From the IMG/VR virus record IMGVR_UViG_3300021406_000003, positions 1 through 55,115 of that record: 55,115 bases of DNA; one strand, given 5' to 3'. Positions 5,578 to 15,449 of this stretch are shown here, in pieces. The translations under genes were made by a program, and so were the position numbers. Source of the DNA: a virus (lineage: Duplodnaviria > Caudoviricetes). Under the pieces are notes generated by a model that did not search any database, was not told the origin of the DNA, and was given only the letters and a program-made list of their open reading frames with translations. How positions within the stretch are numbered: the first letter of the stretch is position 1; the number at the start of each line of letters is the position of its first letter.

Positions 5578-5653
5578 TGGGGTAGCCTGCGGGAGTTGAA
5601 CCCTGCATTCTCGCTTTCACAGAGCGGCGTCCTACCGTTGGACGAAAGCCACC
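5578..5653 (-). tRNA. tRNA-His (GUG)
   Basis: G-1:C73 pair, acceptor GTGGCTT/AGGCTAC, D arm GTCC/GGAC, anticodon loop CT-GTG-AA, T loop TTCAACT, encoded CCA. Confidence 0.85.
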
Positions 5654-6421: not shown

Positions 6422-6451
6422 AGTCTAGACCAAGCGAGGGTATCTGTACAA
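6422..6451 (-). promoter_or_regulatory. Sigma70-like promoter giving a leaderless KGG mRNA
   Basis: TTGTAC-18-TAGACT, ATG 6 nt downstream. Confidence 0.55.
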
Positions 6452-6543
6452 TCCCCGCGCAAAAAGAAAAACCCACATTTTGAGTGCGGGCTTTTCCCTG
6501 TGAGAAAAAAGAACCGATGGTATGCTACGCCGACGATCTTTTT

Positions 6544-6921
6544 CTATGAGGCCGGCACTGTCCCTCTATCACCTCTGACAAGCGGCGTGAGCGCATGAAC
6601 GATGCTGGTGAAGATGCTGTCCTTGAGCCTCTGCTCTAGGGGAAGCTGGTCATAAGGAACATAGCATGGATGCTCTTTCTTGTCCGGGTCCTTGATCGGC
6701 CCGTACTTCCAACCATCCTGTGCTTTGCCTTTGAGCCAGTTCTCGTGCGACCCCGAAGGTCCAGCGTTAGGATTCTCGAGATGGAAGAGCACACCGTCGA
6801 TCGCACTCCGGACCTGCCAGGTGGGCGCGTCTTCCCACGCAGGCTGTGAGGCGTCCCCTAGCTCCTGGCAATATGCTCGGTTTGCTTCATGAACAATCCG
6901 AGCGATTCCCGGAATGGTCAT
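6544..6921 (-). CDS. RyR-domain protein
   Basis: HENW...DGWKYGPIKDPDKKEHPCYVPYDQLP.EQRLKD is the RyR repeat signature. Confidence 0.88.
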   Translation of the reverse strand: MTIPGIARIVHEANRAYCQELGDASQPAWEDAPTWQVRSAIDGVLFHLENPNAGPSGSHENWLKGKAQDGWKYGPIKDPDKKEHPCYVPYDQLPLEQRLKDSIFTSIVHALTPLVRGDRGTVPAS

Positions 6922-7319
6922 ACCGTGACCCCAATCCTTTCCGTGTGCGCGAGCTCAGGGGCAAGAGGCTCAAGCCGCGGTGCCTCAAACGTAATCGCTG
7001 AGTTCGCGATCATGACGATCTCGTTGAGGTCGGCAGCAAAGCTCTGTACCATGTCCTCAGCGGGGACGAGCGCATCAAGTCGCGTGAGTGCTCTATCACG
7101 CCGGCTCTTTGCATAGTCCGCCAAAGATTCACTTGCGGGAGGCTGCTCGGGAGCTGATTGAACAATCGCATCACGCATCTCCAAAGACGCTTCACGCAGA
7201 GCGAAAAGAGCAAGCGCGGACTTCTTAGCAGCCGCACGAATCGCGTTGCCCTTTAGCACTTGCTCGGGAGACCACGGATGATATTGGAAAATCTCGCTGA
7301 GGTTCTCCGGCGTTATCAA
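6918..7319 (-). CDS. Acb2/Tad1-like hairpin protein (putative immune-signal sponge)
   Basis: FQYHPWSPEQ...AIRAAAK and RALTRL...EIVMIANSAIT motifs; TTG start with GGGGAG SD. Confidence 0.6.
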   Translation of the reverse strand: MITPENLSEIFQYHPWSPEQVLKGNAIRAAAKKSALALFALREASLEMRDAIVQSAPEQPPASESLADYAKSRRDRALTRLDALVPAEDMVQSFAADLNEIVMIANSAITFEAPRLEPLAPELAHTERIGVTV

Positions 7320-7323
7320 GCGG

Positions 7324-7449
7324 TTAGCTCCCCGTAGGATTAGGCGCTGAAGGAGCGGCGGCATCTTCTTTGGGTGCGTCGGCTGGCGGGACGGCGGGAA
7401 TCGCCGCGGTCTCTTCGCCTGGGTCAGGAGTCTTTTCAGTATCGCTCAT
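7324..7449 (-). CDS. Small acidic Pro/Ala-rich protein
   Basis: 41 aa; TATCCT -10 box 7 nt before ATG. Confidence 0.45.
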   Translation of the reverse strand: MSDTEKTPDPGEETAAIPAVPPADAPKEDAAAPSAPNPTGS

Positions 7450-7557
7450 GGCAGGCAGGATACCGCAGGCCATGAAAAAAGCCCTCGTCGTGTGATTCGG
7501 ATACGAAGGCTTCGTGTCCACAACGCTCAACTTACTCATCGCAAAATAAGGAGCACC

Positions 7558-7785
7558 GTGCCTGTACCATATCCGCCCGATCCCAAGGAAGTCCTCCTGT
7601 CTGACATGGATCGCCAGGTCATCTTCCTCATCGCCGAGGGCCAGCGCGCCAAGGTCATCGCCGGCCTCCTCAAGCTCTCGCGCAAACAGCTCACGACCAT
7701 CTACGAAGACCTCCGCAAGAAGATCGGAACGCCCTCGTGGACCGGCGTTGCGGTGTGGGCCATCCGAAACGGAGTCATCAAATGA
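7558..7785 (+). CDS. LuxR-type HTH regulator
   Basis: LSDMDRQVIFLIAEGQRAKVIAGLLKLS...LRKKIG; AGGAG SD with GTG start. Confidence 0.85.
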   Translation: MPVPYPPDPKEVLLSDMDRQVIFLIAEGQRAKVIAGLLKLSRKQLTTIYEDLRKKIGTPSWTGVAVWAIRNGVIK

Positions 7786-8045
7786 GCGTTAACGTCCATA
7801 ACCTACCGATCAACGAAGAACTCACGATGGACGGCCCCGTGAACGTCTATATGCCCGAGGATATCACGATGGGAGTTTTCGGACTCGGGGATGACTTGAA
7901 AGCCCCACTAGTGGTCATTATCGTCGACCACTATCCTCCATGCTGCGTCGCGAAGACCGCAGAGCAATGCCGCCATTGGGCCGCAGACTTCACGCGAGCA
8001 GCAGAAGAACTCGAGAAGCGCGCGAAAGTTGAGGAGCCGAAATGA
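7782..8045 (+). CDS. Hypothetical protein
   Basis: ATGA coupling. Confidence 0.6.
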   Translation: MSVNVHNLPINEELTMDGPVNVYMPEDITMGVFGLGDDLKAPLVVIIVDHYPPCCVAKTAEQCRHWAADFTRAAEELEKRAKVEEPK

Positions 8046-8242
8046 CTATTCTTCAGATCGCTGCCGCCCTGGAGATCGGAGGCTTCGGCTTCGATGAATC
8101 CATCGCTATAGCAAAGGGAAGCGGCGCGAAAGTCCCCTCTCTCCGAGAGCAACTCCACATCGCTCGCACAGCGCAAGAACTCCAACGCAGGCGTGCCGAA
8201 GCTCTCGAAGAGATCATCGGGCAGATCGAACGTGAACCGTGA
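8042..8242 (+). CDS. Hypothetical protein
   Basis: ATGA coupling, GGAG SD. Confidence 0.6.
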   Translation: MTILQIAAALEIGGFGFDESIAIAKGSGAKVPSLREQLHIARTAQELQRRRAEALEEIIGQIEREP

Positions 8243-8571
8243 TCCCGGACTCTAAACTCGACGAGCTCCTCGCGCTCGCAACGAACGCTTTGCAATCGCG
8301 TGATATTTGGTATTTATGGAATGAGAATCCGTCCCCCGATGGAGGCAGAGCATCTCGGCTGATTTACGCTGCGGATCCCGAGACTGTCATGCGACTCGTC
8401 GAGGAAATACGCATGCTCCGCCTAGAGCGGGATGAAGCAAGGACCGAGATCAAGCGTCTCATGCACCTAGCGATGGAGATGAATAAGGAACTTAGCGCCT
8501 ACCACCAAGCAGAAAGACCCCCAGAAAAAATTTCTCAGGGAGCAGAAGGAGACCCCAAGCCGACGCCGTAG
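8239..8571 (+). CDS. Ead/Ea22-like protein
   Basis: LIYAADPETVMRLVEEIRML followed by coiled coil. Confidence 0.6.
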   Translation: MIPDSKLDELLALATNALQSRDIWYLWNENPSPDGGRASRLIYAADPETVMRLVEEIRMLRLERDEARTEIKRLMHLAMEMNKELSAYHQAERPPEKISQGAEGDPKPTP

Positions 8572-8787
8572 ATACACCATCGCGAGACGACCGCTCGACG
8601 GAGCGCCGATCTCGGAAAGGCTTGTGGGCGCATCGGCGTCCTTACCACAAGCGGGATGTCGGTAGCCCAGAGTCCAGTCGCTCGCGCGATTTCACTCCCT
8701 CGGGATACCTAGAGGGAGTTTTTCTTGCCAAGTCCATCACGAAAACAAGCACACGGGTACGGCTACGGCAGCGGACGAGGCTCCGCC

Positions 8788-8991
8788 ATGACCAAGCAGT
8801 TCAACGAGAACATGGCCAAGCCGCCAAGCGAAAGACCCTACCCCTTCCGCTCATCCGACTCCCCCACCCCATCCGGGAGACAGTGCTACGGCCTCTCAAG
8901 CCTCTCCGATTGGCAAGTCCTCACCCTCATCGCCGTCGCCATGTACCTCATCCACGCCATAGCCATGAAGCTCGGATGCAACTGCCCATGA
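8788..8991 (+). CDS. Small membrane protein
   Basis: C-terminal TM helix. Confidence 0.5.
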   Translation: MTKQFNENMAKPPSERPYPFRSSDSPTPSGRQCYGLSSLSDWQVLTLIAVAMYLIHAIAMKLGCNCP

Positions 8992-9278
8992 AGATACGCC
9001 TCGATTCCGGCACCGTGCTCGACGTCGACCATGAGCTTCGTCTCGCAAGCGCAGCAGATCAATGGAAGCTCGTAGCAGTTCTTCAGGCCCTCCACGCAGC
9101 CCTTAGCGTGCGCACTAAACACGGTCCCCCATACCCCGGCGTAGTCGATGCGATAAACGAAGTGCTCGATAACCACGGCGACTCCGAGGACATCGGAGAT
9201 GCGTGCTATTTGCATGGGCGTTCGTCCATGCGGCAAGCCGTCCGCCAAGCCGCAGGCGTCGTCGAGGAAGGCTCATGA
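8988..9278 (+). CDS. Hypothetical protein
   Basis: ATGA-coupled on both sides. Confidence 0.6.
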   Translation: MKIRLDSGTVLDVDHELRLASAADQWKLVAVLQALHAALSVRTKHGPPYPGVVDAINEVLDNHGDSEDIGDACYLHGRSSMRQAVRQAAGVVEEGS

Positions 9279-9487
9279 CCTTCCCCCCCGGCTCCATCCT
9301 CACGCACCGCAAAGGCGGCACCTACACCGTCATCCTCACCCCTGACCTCTGCACCCTCGAGGAAACCCGCGAGCCCGCATACGCCTACCTCGCCCAAAGC
9401 ACCGGCAAAATTCACGTCCGCCGACAATCGGAGATGGAAGACGGGCGCTTCCGGCGTCTCAAAGAAGCGCAGGAGCCTCAGAGATAG
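9275..9487 (+). CDS. DUF1653-like protein
   Basis: THRKGGTYTVI...YAYLA...GKIHVR...DGRF. Confidence 0.75.
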   Translation: MTFPPGSILTHRKGGTYTVILTPDLCTLEETREPAYAYLAQSTGKIHVRRQSEMEDGRFRRLKEAQEPQR

Positions 9488-9875
9488 CTTTCTGGTATCC
9501 GTTGCCATTTCCATACAGACCAAACCGAGGATTGAGCCGGTACAAATGCCCCGCTCCTATTCTTCCCCCACGTAAGATAACGTTTCTTCGTAAAAGCTGC
9601 GTTATCGCCCGCGAAACACCCTGTTGCTTTAACCCGAGCGCCTTCCCTATCTGCGCCTGGGAAGTCACCGCGCATCCGTTCCCAACGCGCGTCTTCGAAA
9701 CCAAATAGCAAAGCACACGCAAGCTCTCCCCTCGTAACACCTTATCCCTGGCAGCCTTGTCCAAAGCCCCCTGGAATACCATCACAAACGGCGGCAGGGG
9801 ACTTTTTCTCCTCGAAGAAGCACCGTCCTCAACGACCTCATACGTCGTCGCGTCGATCTCAATCGTCTGGTTCAT
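9459..9875 (-). CDS. RepL-like winged-HTH replication/maintenance protein
   Basis: FVMVFQ...LRVLCYL...SQAQIGKALGLKQQGVSRAITQL...YRLNPRF. Confidence 0.7.
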   Translation of the reverse strand: MNQTIEIDATTYEVVEDGASSRRKSPLPPFVMVFQGALDKAARDKVLRGESLRVLCYLVSKTRVGNGCAVTSQAQIGKALGLKQQGVSRAITQLLRRNVILRGGRIGAGHLYRLNPRFGLYGNGNGYQKAISEAPALL

Positions 9876-10573
9876 TTCGCCCTCATACAACACCCACTAC
9901 AACACGGGTGTTGTACTGTTACTACACATAGGTAGTAAAGCCTTTCACGACACGAAACGCGCTTTCCCTTTATTCATACCGGAAAGATTCGCGCTCTTCT
10001 CCTTCATACTACTCCGCCCTCTTATTCTTATATACCTTATACGCGGAGGCACTCCGCAGTGAAGCCGTAGGCGTAACGGAATACCAAGCAACCCATTCAC
10101 TACTCTCAACTCGCCTCAGAAAAAATCTCTGCGCAAATTTTCACCGGGGGCACTAGCAAAGGGTGAAGATCATCCCCCACACCGCCGTAAGCCAGGGGTC
10201 ACCGGGTTGTCGTCGGCGATCGTCGTCGGTGCGCTGCGGGAGTGCGTCGTGCTTGGTAGGTGTTGCTTGTTTGCGAAGGGGGTGGGCGTGGCACGGGGCC
10301 GGCGTTGGGCGGTGCGGATGCTGGCCTTCAGGGTGCCGTCGGGCACCGTGGGGGCTCTCCTTAGCGGAGGTCGCCACCAACGGCATGGGATGCCATGGCA
10401 CCGGCGCACACAGCTACGACAAAAGACATGGCAGAGAGAGCAGGAAGGGGCTAGGATGTGTGTAGGGGGATGTGGTAATCCCTCGCTTACGAGTAGCTTT
10501 GGCCGGATCCTGGCGTATTGGCTGTGGTTTAGGCTTGGCTGTCGTTGTATGCTATGAATAGGAGCTTAGTGGT

Positions 10574-10735
10574 ATGAGAGACGTATACGTGCGCGTTGCG
10601 CGAGCGCGCATCGAGTTGGATGAGATTTCGGCTGCGGTGTGGAGACTGCAGACGGCGAAGGATGTGGAGGGACTAGCAGATGGTCGGTATCGGACGTATA
10701 CGATTTTGGTGCCGTCGCGTGAGGCATGCGTATGA
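10574..10735 (+). CDS. Hypothetical protein (53 aa)
   Basis: AGGAG SD; ATGA-coupled to next gene. Confidence 0.6.
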   Translation: MRDVYVRVARARIELDEISAAVWRLQTAKDVEGLADGRYRTYTILVPSREACV

Positions 10736-10950
10736 TCGTCGATATCCGGCAGAGTATCGGACCTCATGTGAGCCTTGGGACGTTTTGGCTTGACTTGCTG
10801 GAGCGCAAGATTGCTCAGTATGCGCGTCGGCCGGATCCCGGCGTGACGTTGATTTCCACGGGGCTTGATCGACATCGTCGGCCTCGGGTACGTATTGATC
10901 GAGAACCTGGGCGTATGTATATCGACGCCACGTCGCCTATTGAGCGATGA
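10732..10950 (+). CDS. Hypothetical protein
   Basis: Coupled; stop immediately before hammerhead 1. Confidence 0.6.
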   Translation: MIVDIRQSIGPHVSLGTFWLDLLERKIAQYARRPDPGVTLISTGLDRHRRPRVRIDREPGRMYIDATSPIER

Positions 10951-10951
10951 C

Positions 10952-11022
10952 GGCTTCGCCTGAAGAGTCTCAGCGTGTCGGTTGAGACGAAACGGCCTTG
11001 AGGCCGTCGCGGAATCCGATTC
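10952..11022 (+). ncRNA. Type I hammerhead ribozyme 1 (cleavage after C11008)
   Basis: CTGAAGA-stem II GTCTCAGC/GTTGAGAC-GAAA-stem III CGGCC/GGCCG-TC-stem I; loop II GTCGG can pair with downstream CCGAT. Confidence 0.92.
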
Positions 11023-11062
11023 CGTACTTTACTTTCTCTCATCTCTAGGAGTATTTCAGACC

Positions 11063-11395
11063 ATGTCTATTCCAGCTTCAGCGGCCAAGCTTGCTTCGGC
11101 TGACCACGGATCTCATGGGCAGCCGGGCAGTGGTGCTACGCAGCGCAGCGCCAGCGTATGGCGTCTCATTTCCGGGAAATTCGCGTGTCAAGTGCGGGAG
11201 CGATCCGGCAGTAATCAGGGATACATCGAATGGCATCACGAGCGCGAGGTAATATACCGCCACGCATCCCTAGATGAGCTCCTTGCCGTTGCGCTATCTG
11301 AGGAGAGCGTCCCTGAGATCAGGGCCGCGATTCGGGAAGCGATTGGCGATGCGGAGGATGCGATGGACGCGGCATCTACGTCCCAGACCGCCTGA
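11063..11395 (+). CDS. Hypothetical protein (110 aa) flanked by hammerheads
   Basis: TAGGAG SD; stop TGA is the UGA of the hammerhead 2 core. Confidence 0.8.
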   Translation: MSIPASAAKLASADHGSHGQPGSGATQRSASVWRLISGKFACQVRERSGSNQGYIEWHHEREVIYRHASLDELLAVALSEESVPEIRAAIREAIGDAEDAMDAASTSQTA

Positions 11396-11465
11396 CGAGG
11401 CTAGGCTGATCGGCCTAGCCGAAACCGGAACGCTTGCGGGCGTTCCTGGTCGCGGAATCCGATCT
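11388..11465 (+). ncRNA. Type I hammerhead ribozyme 2 (cleavage after C11451)
   Basis: CCGC-CTGACGA-GGCTAGG/CCTAGCC-GAAA-CCGGAACGC/GCGTTCCTGG-TC-GCGG; loop GATCGG pairs with downstream CCGATC. Confidence 0.92.
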
Positions 11466-11593
11466 TCCATCGAGGTTCTTCGCCGCCTTGCGTAACCGGC
11501 TAGGCGCGTTGCTCCCCCTGTGTACTCCTATTCCGGGGGGAGCGACGAGGTGCTTTTGGTTGGTAGGAATAGGGTGTTAGGAGTGCTTCGCTT

Positions 11594-11851
11594 ATGTATA
11601 CCGTGACGAACTTCCGCACGAAGAAGGCGCTGAAGGATGCGCTGATCGCAGGCAAGCGTGTGGAAGTGTACCAGCCCAACGGAGATATCTTTGGGCGCGC
11701 ACCGCAAACAGAGGGGCGCGTGGCGATCGAAGGGCCGCATTATCCCGAGCCTCACCGTTGGTATGCCGAGGCGATCATTGCTGGCGGCGTTATCGTTTCT
11801 CTCGACGGGAAGAGCGTTGAGAAGATGCGCGCGAAGGCGGCTATATCATGA
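11594..11851 (+). CDS. Conserved phage hypothetical protein
   Basis: NFRTKKALK...EGPHYPEPHRWYA motif; TAGGAG SD. Confidence 0.75.
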   Translation: MYTVTNFRTKKALKDALIAGKRVEVYQPNGDIFGRAPQTEGRVAIEGPHYPEPHRWYAEAIIAGGVIVSLDGKSVEKMRAKAAIS

Positions 11852-12094
11852 GCCGATTCGCTGCGTCAAGCTTTGGCCGGGAATGTGGCCAAGCGTACTT
11901 GCGCGAGAACGGGTTCGCAGTACACGACATAGGGGAGACTTCGTGAGTTCCTCTGCGCGCGGGCGCGTAGGCGCGCGGGAGGCTTTGCGGGCTGCGAGCT
12001 TGCGCTTGCCGCTTCCTGGGCAGCTCTCGCTCTTGGAGGAGTATGCGCTTTCCGGGGCCTTTTTCACACTAACCTTCAGGAGTTTTTCCGAGCT

Positions 12095-12349
12095 ATGCTT
12101 ACTGCTTTGCCTGCTGCCGTTCCTCCCAGCTCTCCTGAGATCGAGAAGGCCAAGGCTGCCTGTGTGGCATACTTGCCAACGATCGAGCGGACTTCGCCTG
12201 GCGACGGCGGGGCGCTCAAAGTGCCCTTTGGGGGCTCGTACGTTCGCGTGACGTGCTACCACCGCGCTGACGGAGAGCTTGTCGTCAAAGTTACTCGCCC
12301 GCACCGGGTTCGGCATTACCACCTCGTTTTTTCGGAGACGCAACCATGA
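12095..12349 (+). CDS. Hypothetical protein
   Basis: AGGAG SD. Confidence 0.65.
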   Translation: MLTALPAAVPPSSPEIEKAKAACVAYLPTIERTSPGDGGALKVPFGGSYVRVTCYHRADGELVVKVTRPHRVRHYHLVFSETQP

Positions 12350-13775: not shown

Positions 13776-15143
13776 TTATATGTCCTTGGAGTCTTGGCGC
13801 TCGGTTTCCGCGATGTACCGGATGATTCCCTCCGAAAAGCCGTCGAAGTGCGCTGTCCAGCCCTTGCCGTAGCCCACACCGTTCTGCGATGATGCGACAT
13901 TGAGCATATAGGCTTTGCGAGCGACCGGCGTCGGCACGCGGTCTTCGGTCTGCTCGTCGCTGATGACGATGAGGCGGTCGTGCGGCACCTGCGCGTTGAT
14001 GTGCTCGATGGCTGCACCGAGGCGCGTTGAGCCGTGGGGTTGGGAGTTCAGCACCGCATCGACGCCCGCGAGGCCCCGCCTGGGCGGAACTTCGCGGATT
14101 TCACCGCTGAAGCTGAAGACGCGGAGCTTCTCGCATCGGATGACGCTGGCGAGTGTGGCGGCTGCATCGCAGCGCTTGAGGTCTGACTTGGCCGAGAGGG
14201 GCGAATCCATCGAGCCGGAGATATCGACGAGCACGACGGTCGTGCCGGGCAGCACGGGGGATTCCTCGATGCTCGCGCAGAGTGCCTCGTCGATCGCGGC
14301 TTCCCACATGGGGACCGCTCGCGCCGCAGCGATGTAGCGGAACGGGAGAACGCGATACGCTCCGTGCCCTCTTGCGCGGACGGCATCGAGCACGAGCTTC
14401 TCGTCGCAGCCGGCTTGCTGCATGTTCCGTAGGTTACGCAATAATGCAAAGTAACCAAGCTTTCCCTCGCGAATGAGGCTTTCGAACGTCTCTTTCTTTG
14501 CCTTGCCCGAGCTCAAGAGCACTTCCCACGTTTCAGGCGTGGCGAGCTCCTTGGATGCTAGGCGCTTCCACATCGCCGCCTGTTCGTCGTTGTCAGGCCG
14601 AGGGTGGACCATGAACATGACGTCGCGCAACTTTATTGCACCGTCTCGGTTGTACTTTTGTAAATTATATTCATCAAACGAGGCGAACGCTTGGGCAAGG
14701 CCCTTCTTGACCTGAGCCGAGAGCTTGGGCTTCACCTTATCCGGCGTGACGCCATTGAGGCGCGCATACACGACGAGGAACTCAGCGAGCTCATCCGCGC
14801 GCTGAATCGTATTAGCGATTGCACAGGAGACGAGACTGTTGCCGCGCCCACGCCGTGCGAGCACGGAGAGCAGAAGCAGCGGAACGTGGCGGAGATGAAA
14901 CTTCGAGCGAGCCTCATGCGCGAGCGCTGCGAGGGTCTCGATAGGGACCTTCTCGGCGTTCTCGACGATGCGGTCGGCAATGCTCTGACCGTTTTCATAG
15001 TAACCCTCTTCCCAAAGCAAGCAAGAAAGCACCGACCGACGGAGCTGCTGCTCTGCGTTGAGGTGTGGGTATGCGGGTCCGCCTTCGTGGGTTAGGACGG
15101 GCGGGCGCTCGAGGGGCACGTTGAGCCGGGACATGGACGCCAT
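13776..15143 (-). CDS. rsr: Ro60/Rsr orthologue (TROVE + vWA domains)
   Basis: THEGG, LRRSVLSCLLWE..YE.G, IQRADE, KYNRDGAIKLRDVMFMVHP, TWE, ALLRNLRN, VLPFRY, MIDAS DISGSM; start 15143 or 15134. Confidence 0.95.
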   Translation of the reverse strand: MASMSRLNVPLERPPVLTHEGGPAYPHLNAEQQLRRSVLSCLLWEEGYYENGQSIADRIVENAEKVPIETLAALAHEARSKFHLRHVPLLLLSVLARRGRGNSLVSCAIANTIQRADELAEFLVVYARLNGVTPDKVKPKLSAQVKKGLAQAFASFDEYNLQKYNRDGAIKLRDVMFMVHPRPDNDEQAAMWKRLASKELATPETWEVLLSSGKAKKETFESLIREGKLGYFALLRNLRNMQQAGCDEKLVLDAVRARGHGAYRVLPFRYIAAARAVPMWEAAIDEALCASIEESPVLPGTTVVLVDISGSMDSPLSAKSDLKRCDAAATLASVIRCEKLRVFSFSGEIREVPPRRGLAGVDAVLNSQPHGSTRLGAAIEHINAQVPHDRLIVISDEQTEDRVPTPVARKAYMLNVASSQNGVGYGKGWTAHFDGFSEGIIRYIAETERQDSKDI

Positions 15144-15164
15144 CTCTTTCTGGAGAGGATTGTT

Positions 15165-15306
15165 GACCGGGGAACAGGCGAGGATAGGGTGTTTTTGTGC
15201 TTCTGCTCTACCAGTTGAGCTACGCGATCGCCTTGCGGCGGTCCCGGAGGGAATCGAACCCCCAACCTGAGGCGTCCGATGCACCTAGCCCTCTACGCCA
15301 CCGATC
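15165..15306 (-). ncRNA. Y RNA-like (YrlA-type) RNA, copy A
   Basis: Terminal stem TGGCGTAG...TCGCCTGTTC enclosing a permuted tRNA: T arm GGGGG-TTCGATT-CCCTC, GCAA-capped acceptor-like stem, D arm GCTC-AACTGGTA-GAGC. Confidence 0.88.
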
Positions 15307-15316
15307 TGAAACTGTT

Positions 15317-15449
15317 GGCCCAGGAACAGGCGACCCTGAGGTTTTACCGTGTTACCGCTACACTACGCGGCGCCTTGCGGCACCGTGCCGGGACTCGAAC
15401 CCGGGATGGCTCGCGTTGATCGAGGAACTCAGTTTCTACGCCATGGACC
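15317..15449 (-). ncRNA. Y RNA-like (YrlA-type) RNA, copy B
   Basis: Same terminal motifs; T arm CCGGG-TTCGAGT-CCCGG, GCAA-capped stem, D arm GTGT-AGCGGTA-ACAC. Confidence 0.88.

What the first reader, a model, noticed from the sequence alone, without database searches (positions are those of the whole stretch)
10952..11465. Tandem hammerhead ribozymes excise a single-gene 443-nt RNA that could circularise
Seen: two complete type I hammerhead cores (CUGANGA / GAAA / GUC) on the same strand. Their stems II and III differ in sequence but both pair, and each has a loop II-3' tail pseudoknot (GUCGG:CCGAU and GAUCGG:CCGAUC). Cleavage after 11008 and 11451 releases 11009-11451, which holds the SD and the whole 110-aa ORF. 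The ORF stop codon is the UGA of ribozyme 2's catalytic core. Both cut sites are followed by the same GCGGAATCCGAT, so end-joining would rebuild an intact hammerhead at the junction. Known: hammerheads leave 5'-OH and 2',3'-cyclic phosphate ends, which RtcB or the reverse reaction can ligate; tandem hammerheads make retrozyme circular RNAs; hammerheads have been reported near phage genes. Inference: this is a phage-encoded protein-coding circular or stabilised mRNA, or a mobile gene cassette, and ribosomes terminating on the core may gate cleavage.
Basis: partly seen in the sequence, partly recalled or inferred. Interest (0 to 1): 0.92.

Follow-up and report, generated by a model that had tools for sequence, protein, structure and literature searches.

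The report
Paired hammerhead ribozymes flanking phage gene
Two genuine self-cutting hammerhead RNAs bracket one small gene in a soil phage, an arrangement already described for many phages, and nothing here shows that the cut-out RNA becomes a circle.

Summary
Complete type I hammerhead motifs lie at 10953-11028 and 11385-11471 (+). Predicted cuts after 11008 and 11451 bracket a 443-nt RNA carrying the SD and the 110-aa ORF, whose stop is the core UGA of the second ribozyme. A simple descriptor finds 2 hits in the window and 0 in 600 randomised windows.

A pattern taken from the two motifs finds at least 117 viral loci and at least 120 bacterial loci. A model built from 84 of those viral hammerheads, without the window's, shows covarying stems II and III and a covarying pseudoknot. 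It scores the window's two at 46.2 and 44.5 bits, with the next hit at 12.9.

In 41 of 100 such loci, hammerheads form same-strand arrays with a median spacing of 594 nt. Identical tails and a stop codon in the core are also common in the class. Perreault et al. 2011 described this arrangement, showed cleavage, and looked for circles without finding any.

The most likely function is processing of a polycistronic mRNA. Circularisation is untested and unsupported. A near-identical phage lacks the first ribozyme through a deletion whose ends are not the cut sites. This is a new member of a known kind, of modest interest.

The parts
10726..10950 (+). Upstream 74-aa ORF. Its stop lies 12 nt before the HH1 core.
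   Evidence: ORF list. Codon-position GC is 0.64/0.48/0.55. No Pfam or PHROG match. The ORF is absent from the near-identical phage L051.
10953..11028 (+). Hammerhead 1, type I. Core at 10960-10966, GAAA at 10989-10992, predicted cut after C11008, pseudoknot 10977-10981 with 11016-11020.
   Evidence: Read. RF00163 gives 23.6 bits, E 0.0047. Class model R1 gives 46.2 bits, E 5.6e-10. It is a descriptor hit.
11009..11025 (+). 7-bp hairpin (GCGGAAU / AUUCCGU, loop CCGAU region) flush with the 5' end of the HH1 3' product. It competes with stem I and the pseudoknot.
   Evidence: Found by the terminator-like scan and in MFE folds. Class-wide, the first 4 nt of the product are paired in 114 of 133 cases, against 70 +/- 5 in shuffles.
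11009..11451 (+). Predicted 443-nt excised RNA, with a 5'-OH and a 2',3'-cyclic phosphate end if both ribozymes cut.
   Evidence: Cut sites are inferred from the motif. Cleavage was not tested. An RNA-library contig spans 10592-11386 uncut.
11047..11052 (+). Shine-Dalgarno sequence TAGGAG of the 110-aa ORF.
   Evidence: The start codon is 54 nt after the cut; the class median is 39 nt.
11063..11395 (+). 110-aa ORF, a member of a conserved family of small proteins of unknown function. Its stop codon is the UGA of the HH2 core.
   Evidence: 36 cluster representatives at E<=1e-3. Alignment A2. AlphaFold2 pLDDT 96.8, with four strands and two helices. No Pfam or PHROG match. Best PDB match is Pur-alpha at E 0.09.
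11385..11471 (+). Hammerhead 2, type I. Core at 11392-11398, GAAA at 11421-11424, predicted cut after C11451, pseudoknot 11408-11413 with 11459-11464.
   Evidence: Read. R1 gives 44.5 bits, E 1.6e-9. Not found by Rfam at E<=10. Identical in L051: of the 9 mismatches in 11239-12055, none lies in 11385-11471.
10601..10608 (.). Left copy of the 8-nt direct repeat CGAGCGCG. It is one endpoint of the 638-nt deletion seen in L051 and in one RNA-run contig.
11239..11246 (.). Right copy of the 8-nt direct repeat, inside the 110-aa ORF. It is the other deletion endpoint.
11507..11547 (+). Strong hairpin (GCUCCCCC...GGGGGGAGC) between HH2 and the next gene.
   Evidence: Picked up as a chance-level miRNA-model match that shows the stem. 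The same stem is present in L051. Its role was not tested.
11594..11851 (+). Next gene downstream (85 aa). Its start codon is 142 nt after the HH2 cut.

Best explanation
The two elements are active type I hammerhead ribozymes of the widespread phage/prophage class that uses a loop II-tail pseudoknot. They sit in the + strand block of small genes (about 7.5-13.5 kb) of a complete 55-kb soil phage.

As the polycistronic transcript is made, each ribozyme cuts itself after its GUC. HH1 separates the upstream 74-aa gene from the 110-aa gene. HH2 cuts 56 nt after that gene's stop codon. The result is a linear single-gene mRNA of 443 nt.

Its 5' end is a 5'-OH that refolds into a 7-bp terminal hairpin. 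Its 3' end is the folded body of HH2 with a 2',3'-cyclic phosphate. The likely benefit is that neighbouring genes are uncoupled in mRNA stability and translation.

Shown here: the motif, class membership, covariation in the class, and the array habit of the class. Taken from the literature: cleavage of comparable arrays. Inferred: cleavage at this locus, the nature of the ends, the role of the hairpin, and the benefit.
For: - Complete cores, with standard pairs next to the core in all three stems of both copies.
- 2 descriptor hits against 0 in 600 randomised windows.
- Stems II and III differ between the two copies yet both pair. The 5' halves are 70% identical over 37 nt.
- A pattern from the two copies finds at least 117 viral loci and at least 120 bacterial loci.
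- On 84 viral members, not including the window's, the covariation score is 0.354 against 0.101 when shuffled (0 of 500 shuffles reach it) and <=0.138 when slid. Compensatory pairs occur in stems II and III and in the pseudoknot.
- Model R1 scores only the two window copies highly: 46.2 and 44.5 bits, next 12.9.
- Arrays are the norm. 41 of 100 loci have 2-7 same-strand hammerheads, and up to 11 were seen in L154.
- Hammerheads abut gene ends. In 124 of 136 cases an ORF of >=40 codons ends within -40..+11 of the core. The next start codon is a median 39 nt after the cut.
- The 3' products start with a hairpin in 114 of 133 cases, against 70 +/- 5 in shuffles.
- HH2 is unchanged in L051 while 6 differences cluster just after it, at 11487-11503. 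In the divergent run X6, the differences listed flank HH2 but none is listed inside it.
- Published: clustered prophage hammerheads flank single genes and cleave in vitro, and one array cleaves in E. coli (PMC3088659, passages). Reviews agree (PMC6155905; PMC6765202).
Against: - No cleavage assay exists for these two sequences.
- Rfam RF00163 scores HH1 below its gathering score and misses HH2.
- The training set for R1 was chosen with a 23-base pattern copied from the window, so part of the R1 score is circular.
- A contig from an RNA library (X5) runs uncut across 11008/11009. This could be uncleaved precursor or DNA carry-over.
- Nearest-neighbour MFE folds do not give the hammerhead fold: HH1 keeps 14 of 19 pairs and HH2 3 of 18. 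My HH2 reference ignored the bulge, and only 23 of 84 class members do better.
- HH2 has a 4-bp stem I, a bulge in stem III, and a 6-nt loop II almost fully used by the pseudoknot.
- HH1 and the intact 110-aa gene are dispensable in a near-identical phage.
Confidence: 0.62

Rival explanations
1. Circular mRNA. After both cuts, the 443-nt RNA is closed into a circle, either by host RtcB or by the reverse hammerhead reaction at a rebuilt HH2-type junction. This would give a stable, translatable circle.
For: - Hammerhead ends (5'-OH and 2',3'-cyclic phosphate) are RtcB substrates; this is established knowledge and was not tested here.
- The 12 nt after both cuts are identical, so a joined junction would differ from HH2 only at the 13th nt.
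- The whole SD and ORF lie inside the excised RNA.
Against: - Identical tails are common in arrays: 9 of 29 within-locus pairs. They are therefore not a special sign.
- The phage has no RtcB, RNA_ligase, T4 Rnl1 or LigT family match. The Rnl1 control rang in no genome, so that one search is uninformative.
- The 5' end of the product folds into a 7-bp hairpin that competes with stem I re-formation.
- Perreault et al. looked for circular or spliced products from such arrays and detected none (data not shown in the paper).
- Three literature searches found no report of hammerhead-derived circles from DNA phages.
Confidence: 0.06
2. Cassette boundaries. The conserved hammerheads act mainly as short homologous sites, at the DNA or RNA level, through which small accessory genes are swapped between phages. 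RNA cleavage would be secondary.
For: - Genes between hammerheads are not constant (PMC3088659; PMC6155905).
- A homologue of the 110-aa gene in another phage (L169) has no hammerhead next to it.
- Tails are more alike within a locus than between loci: mean 5.38 against 3.18 of 8 positions.
- The locus varies among close relatives.
Against: - The L051 deletion runs between 8-nt repeats at 10601-10608 and 11239-11246, not between the hammerheads, and it truncates the gene.
- The X6 replacement (10831-10985) starts in the upstream ORF and ends inside HH1.
- Strong covariation in the stems and pseudoknot shows selection on RNA structure, not just on DNA identity.
Confidence: 0.1
3. Gated cleavage. 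The ribozymes cut only under certain conditions. A ribosome terminating on the core UGA of HH2, or the tail hairpin that competes with stem I and the pseudoknot, sets the fraction of transcripts cut and so tunes expression of the downstream gene.
For: - The stop codon lies in the core in 46 of 136 class members. In most of the others the stop lies 7-15 nt upstream, so a terminating ribosome would cover part of the ribozyme.
- CCGC, a copy of the 5' strand of stem I, lies within nt 8-26 of the product in 91 of 133 cases, against 10 +/- 3 in shuffles.
- The X5 RNA-library contig is uncut at HH1.
Against: - 46 of 124 is close to the one-third expected if genes simply run on until the first stop in whatever frame they are in, so no selection for a core stop is shown.
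- The hairpin is explained equally well as a trap for the product after cleavage.
- No data on cleavage fractions exist.
Confidence: 0.12
4. Inactive relics. One or both motifs no longer cleave and are carried along as neutral intergenic sequence.
For: - HH1 is missing from a near-identical phage.
- Both copies are sub-threshold or missed by Rfam.
- HH2 has a short stem I and a bulged stem III.
Against: - Every conserved core position is intact in both copies.
- HH2 is invariant where its flanks vary.
- Both score within the range of class members: 44-46 bits, against a range of 26.8-74.6.
Confidence: 0.06

Closest known systems
Clustered type I/II/III hammerheads flanking genes in prophages (Perreault et al. 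2011, PLoS Comput Biol 7:e1002031, Figure 3; arrays from Clostridium scindens, Azorhizobium caulinodans and Agrobacterium tumefaciens)
   Same: - Same-strand hammerheads in close proximity flank a single small gene in a phage genome.
- A Watson-Crick pseudoknot ties loop II to the sequence beyond stem I.
- The genes between the ribozymes are not constant.
- The proposed role is processing into single-gene mRNAs.
- The circle/splice idea was already raised there.
   Different: - These are new sequences from an uncultivated soil phage, and the gene between them belongs to a different, unnamed family.
- I did not see the paper's figures or supplements, so I cannot say whether this exact stem I / tail subclass, the stop-in-core habit or the product hairpin is shown there. 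The main text holds no occurrence of 'stop codon'.
Rfam RF00163 Hammerhead_1
   Same: Same core, same type I topology, and all 45 model positions matched for HH1.
   Different: - HH1 scores 23.6 bits against a gathering score of 34, and HH2 is not reported.
- Loop II and stem III are longer than in the model.
- The Rfam scan at gathering thresholds also misses the class hammerheads in 7 array loci.
Retrozymes and viroid-like circular RNAs (tandem hammerheads that release a unit which is ligated into a circle)
   Same: Two same-strand hammerheads release a unit of a few hundred nt with ligatable ends.
   Different: - Those units are non-coding, repeat-flanked eukaryotic retroelements or replicons, and circles have been shown for them (recalled; reviews PMC7761336 and PMC7229834 seen as passages or listing).
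- This unit is a protein-coding stretch of a dsDNA phage operon.
- The only repeat is the ribozyme itself, 15 nt exact.
- No circle has been seen.

Membership tests
Hammerhead ribozyme, type I | Conserved core: C3-U4-G5-A6-N7-G8-A9, G12-A13-A14, A15.1-U16.1, and H17 (not G) | tested here: met
   HH1 has CUGAAGA / GAAA / GUC. HH2 has CUGACGA / GAAA / GUC. Both are descriptor hits.
Hammerhead ribozyme, type I | Three helices around the core with standard pairs next to it (10.1-11.1, 15.2-16.2, 1.1-2.1). Stems II and III are closed by loops and stem I is open. | tested here: met
   HH1 stems I/II/III have 5 / 6-8 / 6 pairs. HH2 has 4 / 8-9 / 10 pairs with one bulged U. Stems II and III differ between the copies yet pair in both.
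Hammerhead ribozyme, type I | [quoted passage not shown] | tested here: met
   5 pairs in HH1 and 5-6 in HH2 by reading. The equivalent pseudoknot covaries in 84 class members: 3 of 4 pairs show changes on both sides. With only two copies in the window, the window itself gives no statistics.
Hammerhead ribozyme, type I | Mg2+-dependent self-cleavage after position 17 | not testable with these tools
   No assay was possible. RNA-run data are contigs only.
Hammerhead ribozyme, type I | Score above the Rfam RF00163 gathering threshold (an operational criterion of one model, not a defining feature of the ribozyme) | tested here: not met
   HH1 scores 23.6 against 34 bits, and HH2 has no match at E<=10. 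Control: no hammerhead is reported at gathering level in 7 loci that hold many R1 hits.
Phage/prophage clustered hammerhead arrangement (Perreault 2011) | Two or more hammerheads on one strand, close together, flanking a gene or a short block of genes in a phage or prophage | tested here: met
   The window is a complete virus record with terminal repeats, with terminase and portal genes. The two hammerheads are 432-443 nt apart around one ORF. The class shows the same habit in 41 of 100 loci.
Phage/prophage clustered hammerhead arrangement (Perreault 2011) | Membership in the same sequence/structure class as other phage hammerheads | tested here: met
   R1, built from 84 other viral hammerheads, scores the two copies at 46.2 and 44.5 bits. 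Caveat: the training set was picked with a pattern from the window.
Retrozyme / viroid-like circular RNA | A covalently closed circular RNA product | not testable with these tools
   Only assembled contigs of two RNA runs could be laid, and no back-joined contig appeared. Contigs cannot show absence.
Retrozyme / viroid-like circular RNA | A non-coding unit bounded by long direct repeats that carry the ribozymes | tested here: not met
   The unit is a coding mRNA segment. The only exact direct repeat is 15 nt, and the 5' halves are 70% identical over 37 nt.

The most novel reading that the evidence does not exclude
The 443-nt RNA released by the two hammerheads is closed in the infected cell, by host RtcB or by the ribozyme's own reverse reaction at a junction that rebuilds an HH2-like ribozyme. 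The product would be a circular, translatable phage mRNA, the first protein-coding hammerhead-derived circle from a dsDNA phage. If so, arrays of such ribozymes in many phages would be circle factories.
Probability: 0.05. Interest if true: 0.85.

Novelty: new member of a known kind. Interest (0 to 1): 0.27.

Why it matters
The biological role of the many hammerheads in phage genomes is still called an open question in the reviews I read (PMC6155905; PMC6765202).

This locus adds no new principle, but it is a compact and clean example:
- two ribozymes, one conserved small gene, and a 443-nt product;
- a natural near-identical variant that lacks the first ribozyme;
- presence in two metatranscriptome libraries.

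The class-level counts made here are cheap, testable leads on how these ribozymes act. They are arrays of up to 11 hammerheads, stop codons abutting or inside the core, and a hairpin at the 5' end of most 3' products. I could not establish whether they are already in print.

Tried and rejected
- **Exact 15-mer search.** The 15-mer at the cut sites (GTCGCGGAATCCGAT) was searched in viral contigs. It gave 49 loci, and 0 of 49 has a hammerhead core upstream, so these are chance matches.
- **Close relatives of the 110-aa protein.** Viral contigs gave none. The word-indexed protein search gave only one 98% identical protein.
- **ORF 11658-12251.** It has no relatives and poor codon statistics, so it is probably not a gene.
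- **Whole-window Rfam scan at E-value level.** It lost HH1 to the filters.
- **RNA runs.** X5 and X8 are contigs only. No back-joined contig was seen. X5 has no cover over 11387-11663. The X5 and X8 contigs stop at different places (11386 and 11329). None of this is evidence for or against cleavage or circles.
- **X8 joint 10600->11239.** It looked like a splice, but it is the DNA deletion form also found as contig L051.
- **MFE folding.** It does not recover the hammerhead fold for most class members, so it was dropped as a test.
- **Fold of the 110-aa protein.** The model is confident, but no structural neighbour reaches E<=0.001 in PDB or BFVD. Pur-alpha at E 0.09 is only a lead. The Atlas gave nothing usable, with scores of 0.82.
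- **Host.** It was not determined.
- **Supplements.** Those of PMC3088659 (Figures S1-S6, Table S1) were not opened. They may already show this subclass.
Full report
**What the window is.** The window is a complete virus record of 55,115 bp with direct terminal repeats. It carries a large terminase and a portal gene. The finding lies in a run of small + strand ORFs, roughly 7.5-13.5 kb, that show coding-type codon-position GC.

**The observation.**
- HH1 runs from about 10953 to 11028. It has CUGAAGA (10960-10966), a 6-bp stem II, GAAA (10989-10992), a 6-bp stem III closed by UUGA, GUC ending at 11008, and a 5-bp stem I.
- HH2 runs from about 11385 to 11471. It has CUGACGA (11392-11398), an 8-bp stem II, GAAA (11421-11424), a 10-bp stem III with one bulged U, GUC ending at 11451, and a 4-bp stem I.
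- In both, loop II can pair with nt 8-13 after the cut: GUCGG with CCGAU, and GAUCG(G) with (C)CGAUC.
- The stretch 11009-11451 is 443 nt. It holds TAGGAG (11047-11052) and the ORF 11063-11395, whose TGA is U4-G5-A6 of the HH2 core.
- The exact repeat at the cut sites is 15 nt, and the 5' halves of the two ribozymes are 70% identical over 37 nt. The copies are therefore related but not recent duplicates, and their stems II and III differ while both still pair.

**Is it more than chance?**
- A simple type I descriptor requires the core, at least 4 contiguous pairs in each stem, and H17. It finds exactly these two sites in both strands of the window.
- It finds none in 300 mononucleotide shuffles and none in 300 first-order Markov resamples.
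- Rfam is unhelpful. At gathering level only a tRNA is reported.
- In a 1-kb scan HH1 matches RF00163 at 23.6 bits (gathering score 34, E 0.0047). HH2 is not listed at E<=10.
- In the genome-wide family search the same HH1 hit has E 6.2e-5. Sub-threshold matches also ring in 13 of 14 control genomes, so that hit alone proves little.

**Relatives of the ribozymes.**
- The exact 15-mer at the cut site is not a class signature. It gave 49 viral loci, and 0 of 49 has a hammerhead core.
- I then used a pattern made of the blocks shared by HH1 and HH2: stem I plus core, CGAAAC, and GTC plus stem I.
- From the number of specified bases and an assumed collection size (my own rough estimate, not from any call), I expected only a few chance matches.
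- The bacterial loci include Cyanobacteria, Bacillota, Actinomycetota, Acetobacteraceae and Acidobacteriota.
- The viral set holds 138 matches.
- I aligned 84 distinct viral members of typical length, chosen by loop length from 131 distinct sequences. The window's copies were not included.
- On that alignment the structure I specified is well supported:
  - 87.6% of cells are paired, against 71.0% when shuffled and <=42.1% when slid.
  - The covariation score is 0.354, against 0.101 when shuffled (0 of 500 shuffles reach it) and <=0.138 when slid.
  - Changes on both sides occur in 5 of 6 stem II pairs, 3 of 5 stem III pairs and 3 of 4 pseudoknot pairs.
- Stem I and the pairs next to the core are invariant by construction of the pattern.
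- Model R1, built from this alignment, was run over the whole window with filters off. It returns HH1 at 46.2 bits (E 5.6e-10) and HH2 at 44.5 bits (E 1.6e-9). The next hit scores 12.9 bits.
- The caveat is that the training set was picked with 23 bases copied from the window, so part of the score is circular. The stem contributions are not.

**The arrangement is the habit of the class.**
- R1 finds 192 hammerheads in 100 class loci.
- 41 of the 100 loci have 2 to 7 hammerheads, always on one strand.
- Across the 92 spacings the median is 594 nt, and 46 are <=600 nt.
- In the remaining loci there are arrays of 11 (L154) and 8 (L167).
- The loci are fragments, so these counts are lower bounds. 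The window's spacing of 432-443 nt is ordinary.
- Tails are often the same within a phage. Nt 5-12 after the cut are identical in 9 of 29 within-locus pairs, the window's pair included, against 67 of 8617 between-locus pairs. The shared GCGGAATCCGAT is therefore no special sign of end-joining.
- In 124 of 136 distinct hammerheads an ORF of at least 40 codons ends within -40..+11 of the core. In 46 of these the stop is the core UGA, and in most others it lies 7-15 nt upstream.
- 46 of 124 is close to the one third expected if a gene simply runs to the first stop in its frame. This count used a crude longest-ORF rule, not a gene caller.
- The next start codon follows the cut by a median of 39 nt. 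In the window the distances are 54 nt and 142 nt.

**A feature I did not expect.**
- The 3' products of the class usually begin with a hairpin.
- CCGC, a copy of the 5' strand of stem I, lies within nt 8-26 of the product in 91 of 133 cases, against 10 +/- 3 in shuffles.
- The first four nt are paired in the MFE fold of the first 30 nt in 114 of 133 cases, against 70 +/- 5 in shuffles.
- In the window, the HH1 product starts with a 7-bp hairpin at 11009-11025.
- This hairpin excludes stem I and the pseudoknot. It could trap the product after cleavage and cap the downstream mRNA.
- That 5'-terminal stem-loops stabilise bacterial mRNAs is recalled knowledge and was not tested here.

**The gene between the ribozymes.**
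- The 110-aa ORF is a real gene. An exhaustive profile-free search finds 36 cluster representatives at E<=1e-3, mostly 100-120 aa and matched end to end.
- The alignment shows conserved motifs, and AlphaFold2 gives pLDDT 96.8 for a four-stranded sheet followed by two helices.
- It has no Pfam or PHROG family and no structural neighbour at E<=0.001. Pur-alpha is the best PDB match at E 0.09, and BFVD gives nothing clear. Function is unknown.
- A 54% identical homologue in another phage (L169) has no hammerhead beside it. This fits the published remark that the genes between hammerheads are not constant.

**Natural variants of the locus.**
- Contig L051 is 99.7% identical to window 6427-10608 and 98.9% identical to 11239-12055, but it lacks the 638 nt between two copies of CGAGCGCG (10601-10608 and 11239-11246).
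- That variant has lost the 74-aa ORF, HH1 and the first 59 codons of the 110-aa gene. It keeps HH2 unchanged behind a 53-aa remnant.
- The same joint appears in a contig of RNA run X8, so it is a DNA variant and not a splice.
- In L051 the 9 mismatches over 11239-12055 lie at 11248, 11251, 11296 and 11487-11503. None lies in HH2.
- A more divergent relative in DNA run X6 replaces 10831-10985 with 131 other letters. It shows listed differences on both sides of HH2 but none listed within 11354-11472. The table was truncated, so this is only suggestive.
- Neither rearrangement has a cut site as its boundary.

**RNA evidence.**
- Nine runs hold parts of the stretch, all soil metagenomes, and two of them are RNA libraries.
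- Only assembled contigs could be laid.
- An X5 contig covers 10592-11386 without a difference and so crosses the HH1 cut site.
- No back-joined contig was seen.
- Contigs cannot show ends, levels or rare forms, and the libraries may hold DNA. These data neither support nor refute cleavage or circles.

**Ligases.** No match to RtcB, RNA_ligase, T4 Rnl1 or LigT families was found in the phage. The Rnl1 control rang nowhere, so that one result is empty. Any ligation would need a host enzyme or the ribozyme itself.

**Literature.**
- Passages of Perreault et al. 2011 (PMC3088659) state the following:
  - Three such arrays cleave in vitro, and one cleaves in E. coli.
  - Pseudoknots between stems I and II are common and needed for speed.
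  - Spliced or circular products were considered but not detected.
- A 2017 review (PMC6155905, passages) says hammerheads are often close together, flanking small non-conserved ORFs tied to phages, and that the role is open.
- A 2019 review (PMC6765202, passages) gives polycistronic mRNA processing as the suggested role.
- A 2026 paper treats hammerheads of DNA bacteriophages as already described (PMC13725137, passages).
- Three full-text searches gave no report of a hammerhead-derived circular RNA from a DNA phage. Subscription journals are not covered.

**Verdict.** The ribozymes are real by every sequence test available, and their arrangement is a textbook case of a known phage habit. The best reading is self-cleavage that turns a polycistronic transcript into single-gene mRNAs, here with a hairpin-capped 5'-OH end. 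The circle, the mobile cassette and ribosome gating remain untested ideas. The features offered for them are class-wide and have simpler explanations. This is a new member of a known kind.

Noticed in passing
window 13776-15284 (-), 15178-15291 (-), 15327-15423 (-): A Ro60-like gene: TROVE domain at E 4.7e-14, a vWA domain, and PHROG 'RNA-binding protein' at E 3.8e-51. Upstream of it are two sub-threshold Rfam YrlA (Y RNA-like) matches at 30.8 and 25.2 bits, against a gathering score of 69.
   Followed up: partly
window 10601-10608 and 11239-11246; L051 4168-4175: A near-identical phage contig lacks the 638 nt between two copies of CGAGCGCG. It has lost the 74-aa ORF, HH1 and half of the 110-aa gene. 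The same joint is present in an RNA-library contig.
   Followed up: yes
window 10831-10985: In DNA run X6 a divergent relative replaces this stretch (the end of the 74-aa ORF and the 5' half of HH1) with 131 unrelated letters. The replacing sequence could not be read.
   Followed up: no
class loci L052-L168; window 11009-11025: The 3' cleavage products of this hammerhead class usually start with a hairpin. It is formed by the stem I 3' strand and a downstream CCGC: 91 of 133 against 10 +/- 3 in shuffles, and 114 of 133 against 70 +/- 5 in shuffles. The hairpin excludes stem I and the pseudoknot.
   Followed up: partly
class loci L052-L168: Hammerheads abut gene ends. The longest upstream ORF stops in the core UGA in 46 of 136 cases, and 7-15 nt before the core in most of the others. 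The next start codon is a median 39 nt after the cut.
   Followed up: partly
L161 1279-1355 (+): A Pistol ribozyme (RF02679, 53.8 bits, above its gathering score) lies on the same strand just upstream of an array of six hammerheads in another viral contig.
   Followed up: no
L154, L078, L071, L089, L167, L161, L064: The Rfam scan at gathering level reports none of the many class hammerheads in these seven array loci. Standard annotation therefore under-calls this phage class.
   Followed up: partly
window 11507-11547 (+): A strong GC hairpin lies between HH2 and the next gene. It is kept in L051, while the spacer just before it (11487-11503) varies. It could be a terminator or a leader structure.
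   Followed up: no
window 5581-5652 (-): A tRNA gene at 44.2 bits.
   Followed up: no
window 11063-11395 (+): The 110-aa protein belongs to an unnamed family of small proteins with motifs such as GSNQGY and AIRxAxxEAED. The predicted fold is very confident (pLDDT 96.8), but no clear structural neighbour was found.
   Followed up: partly
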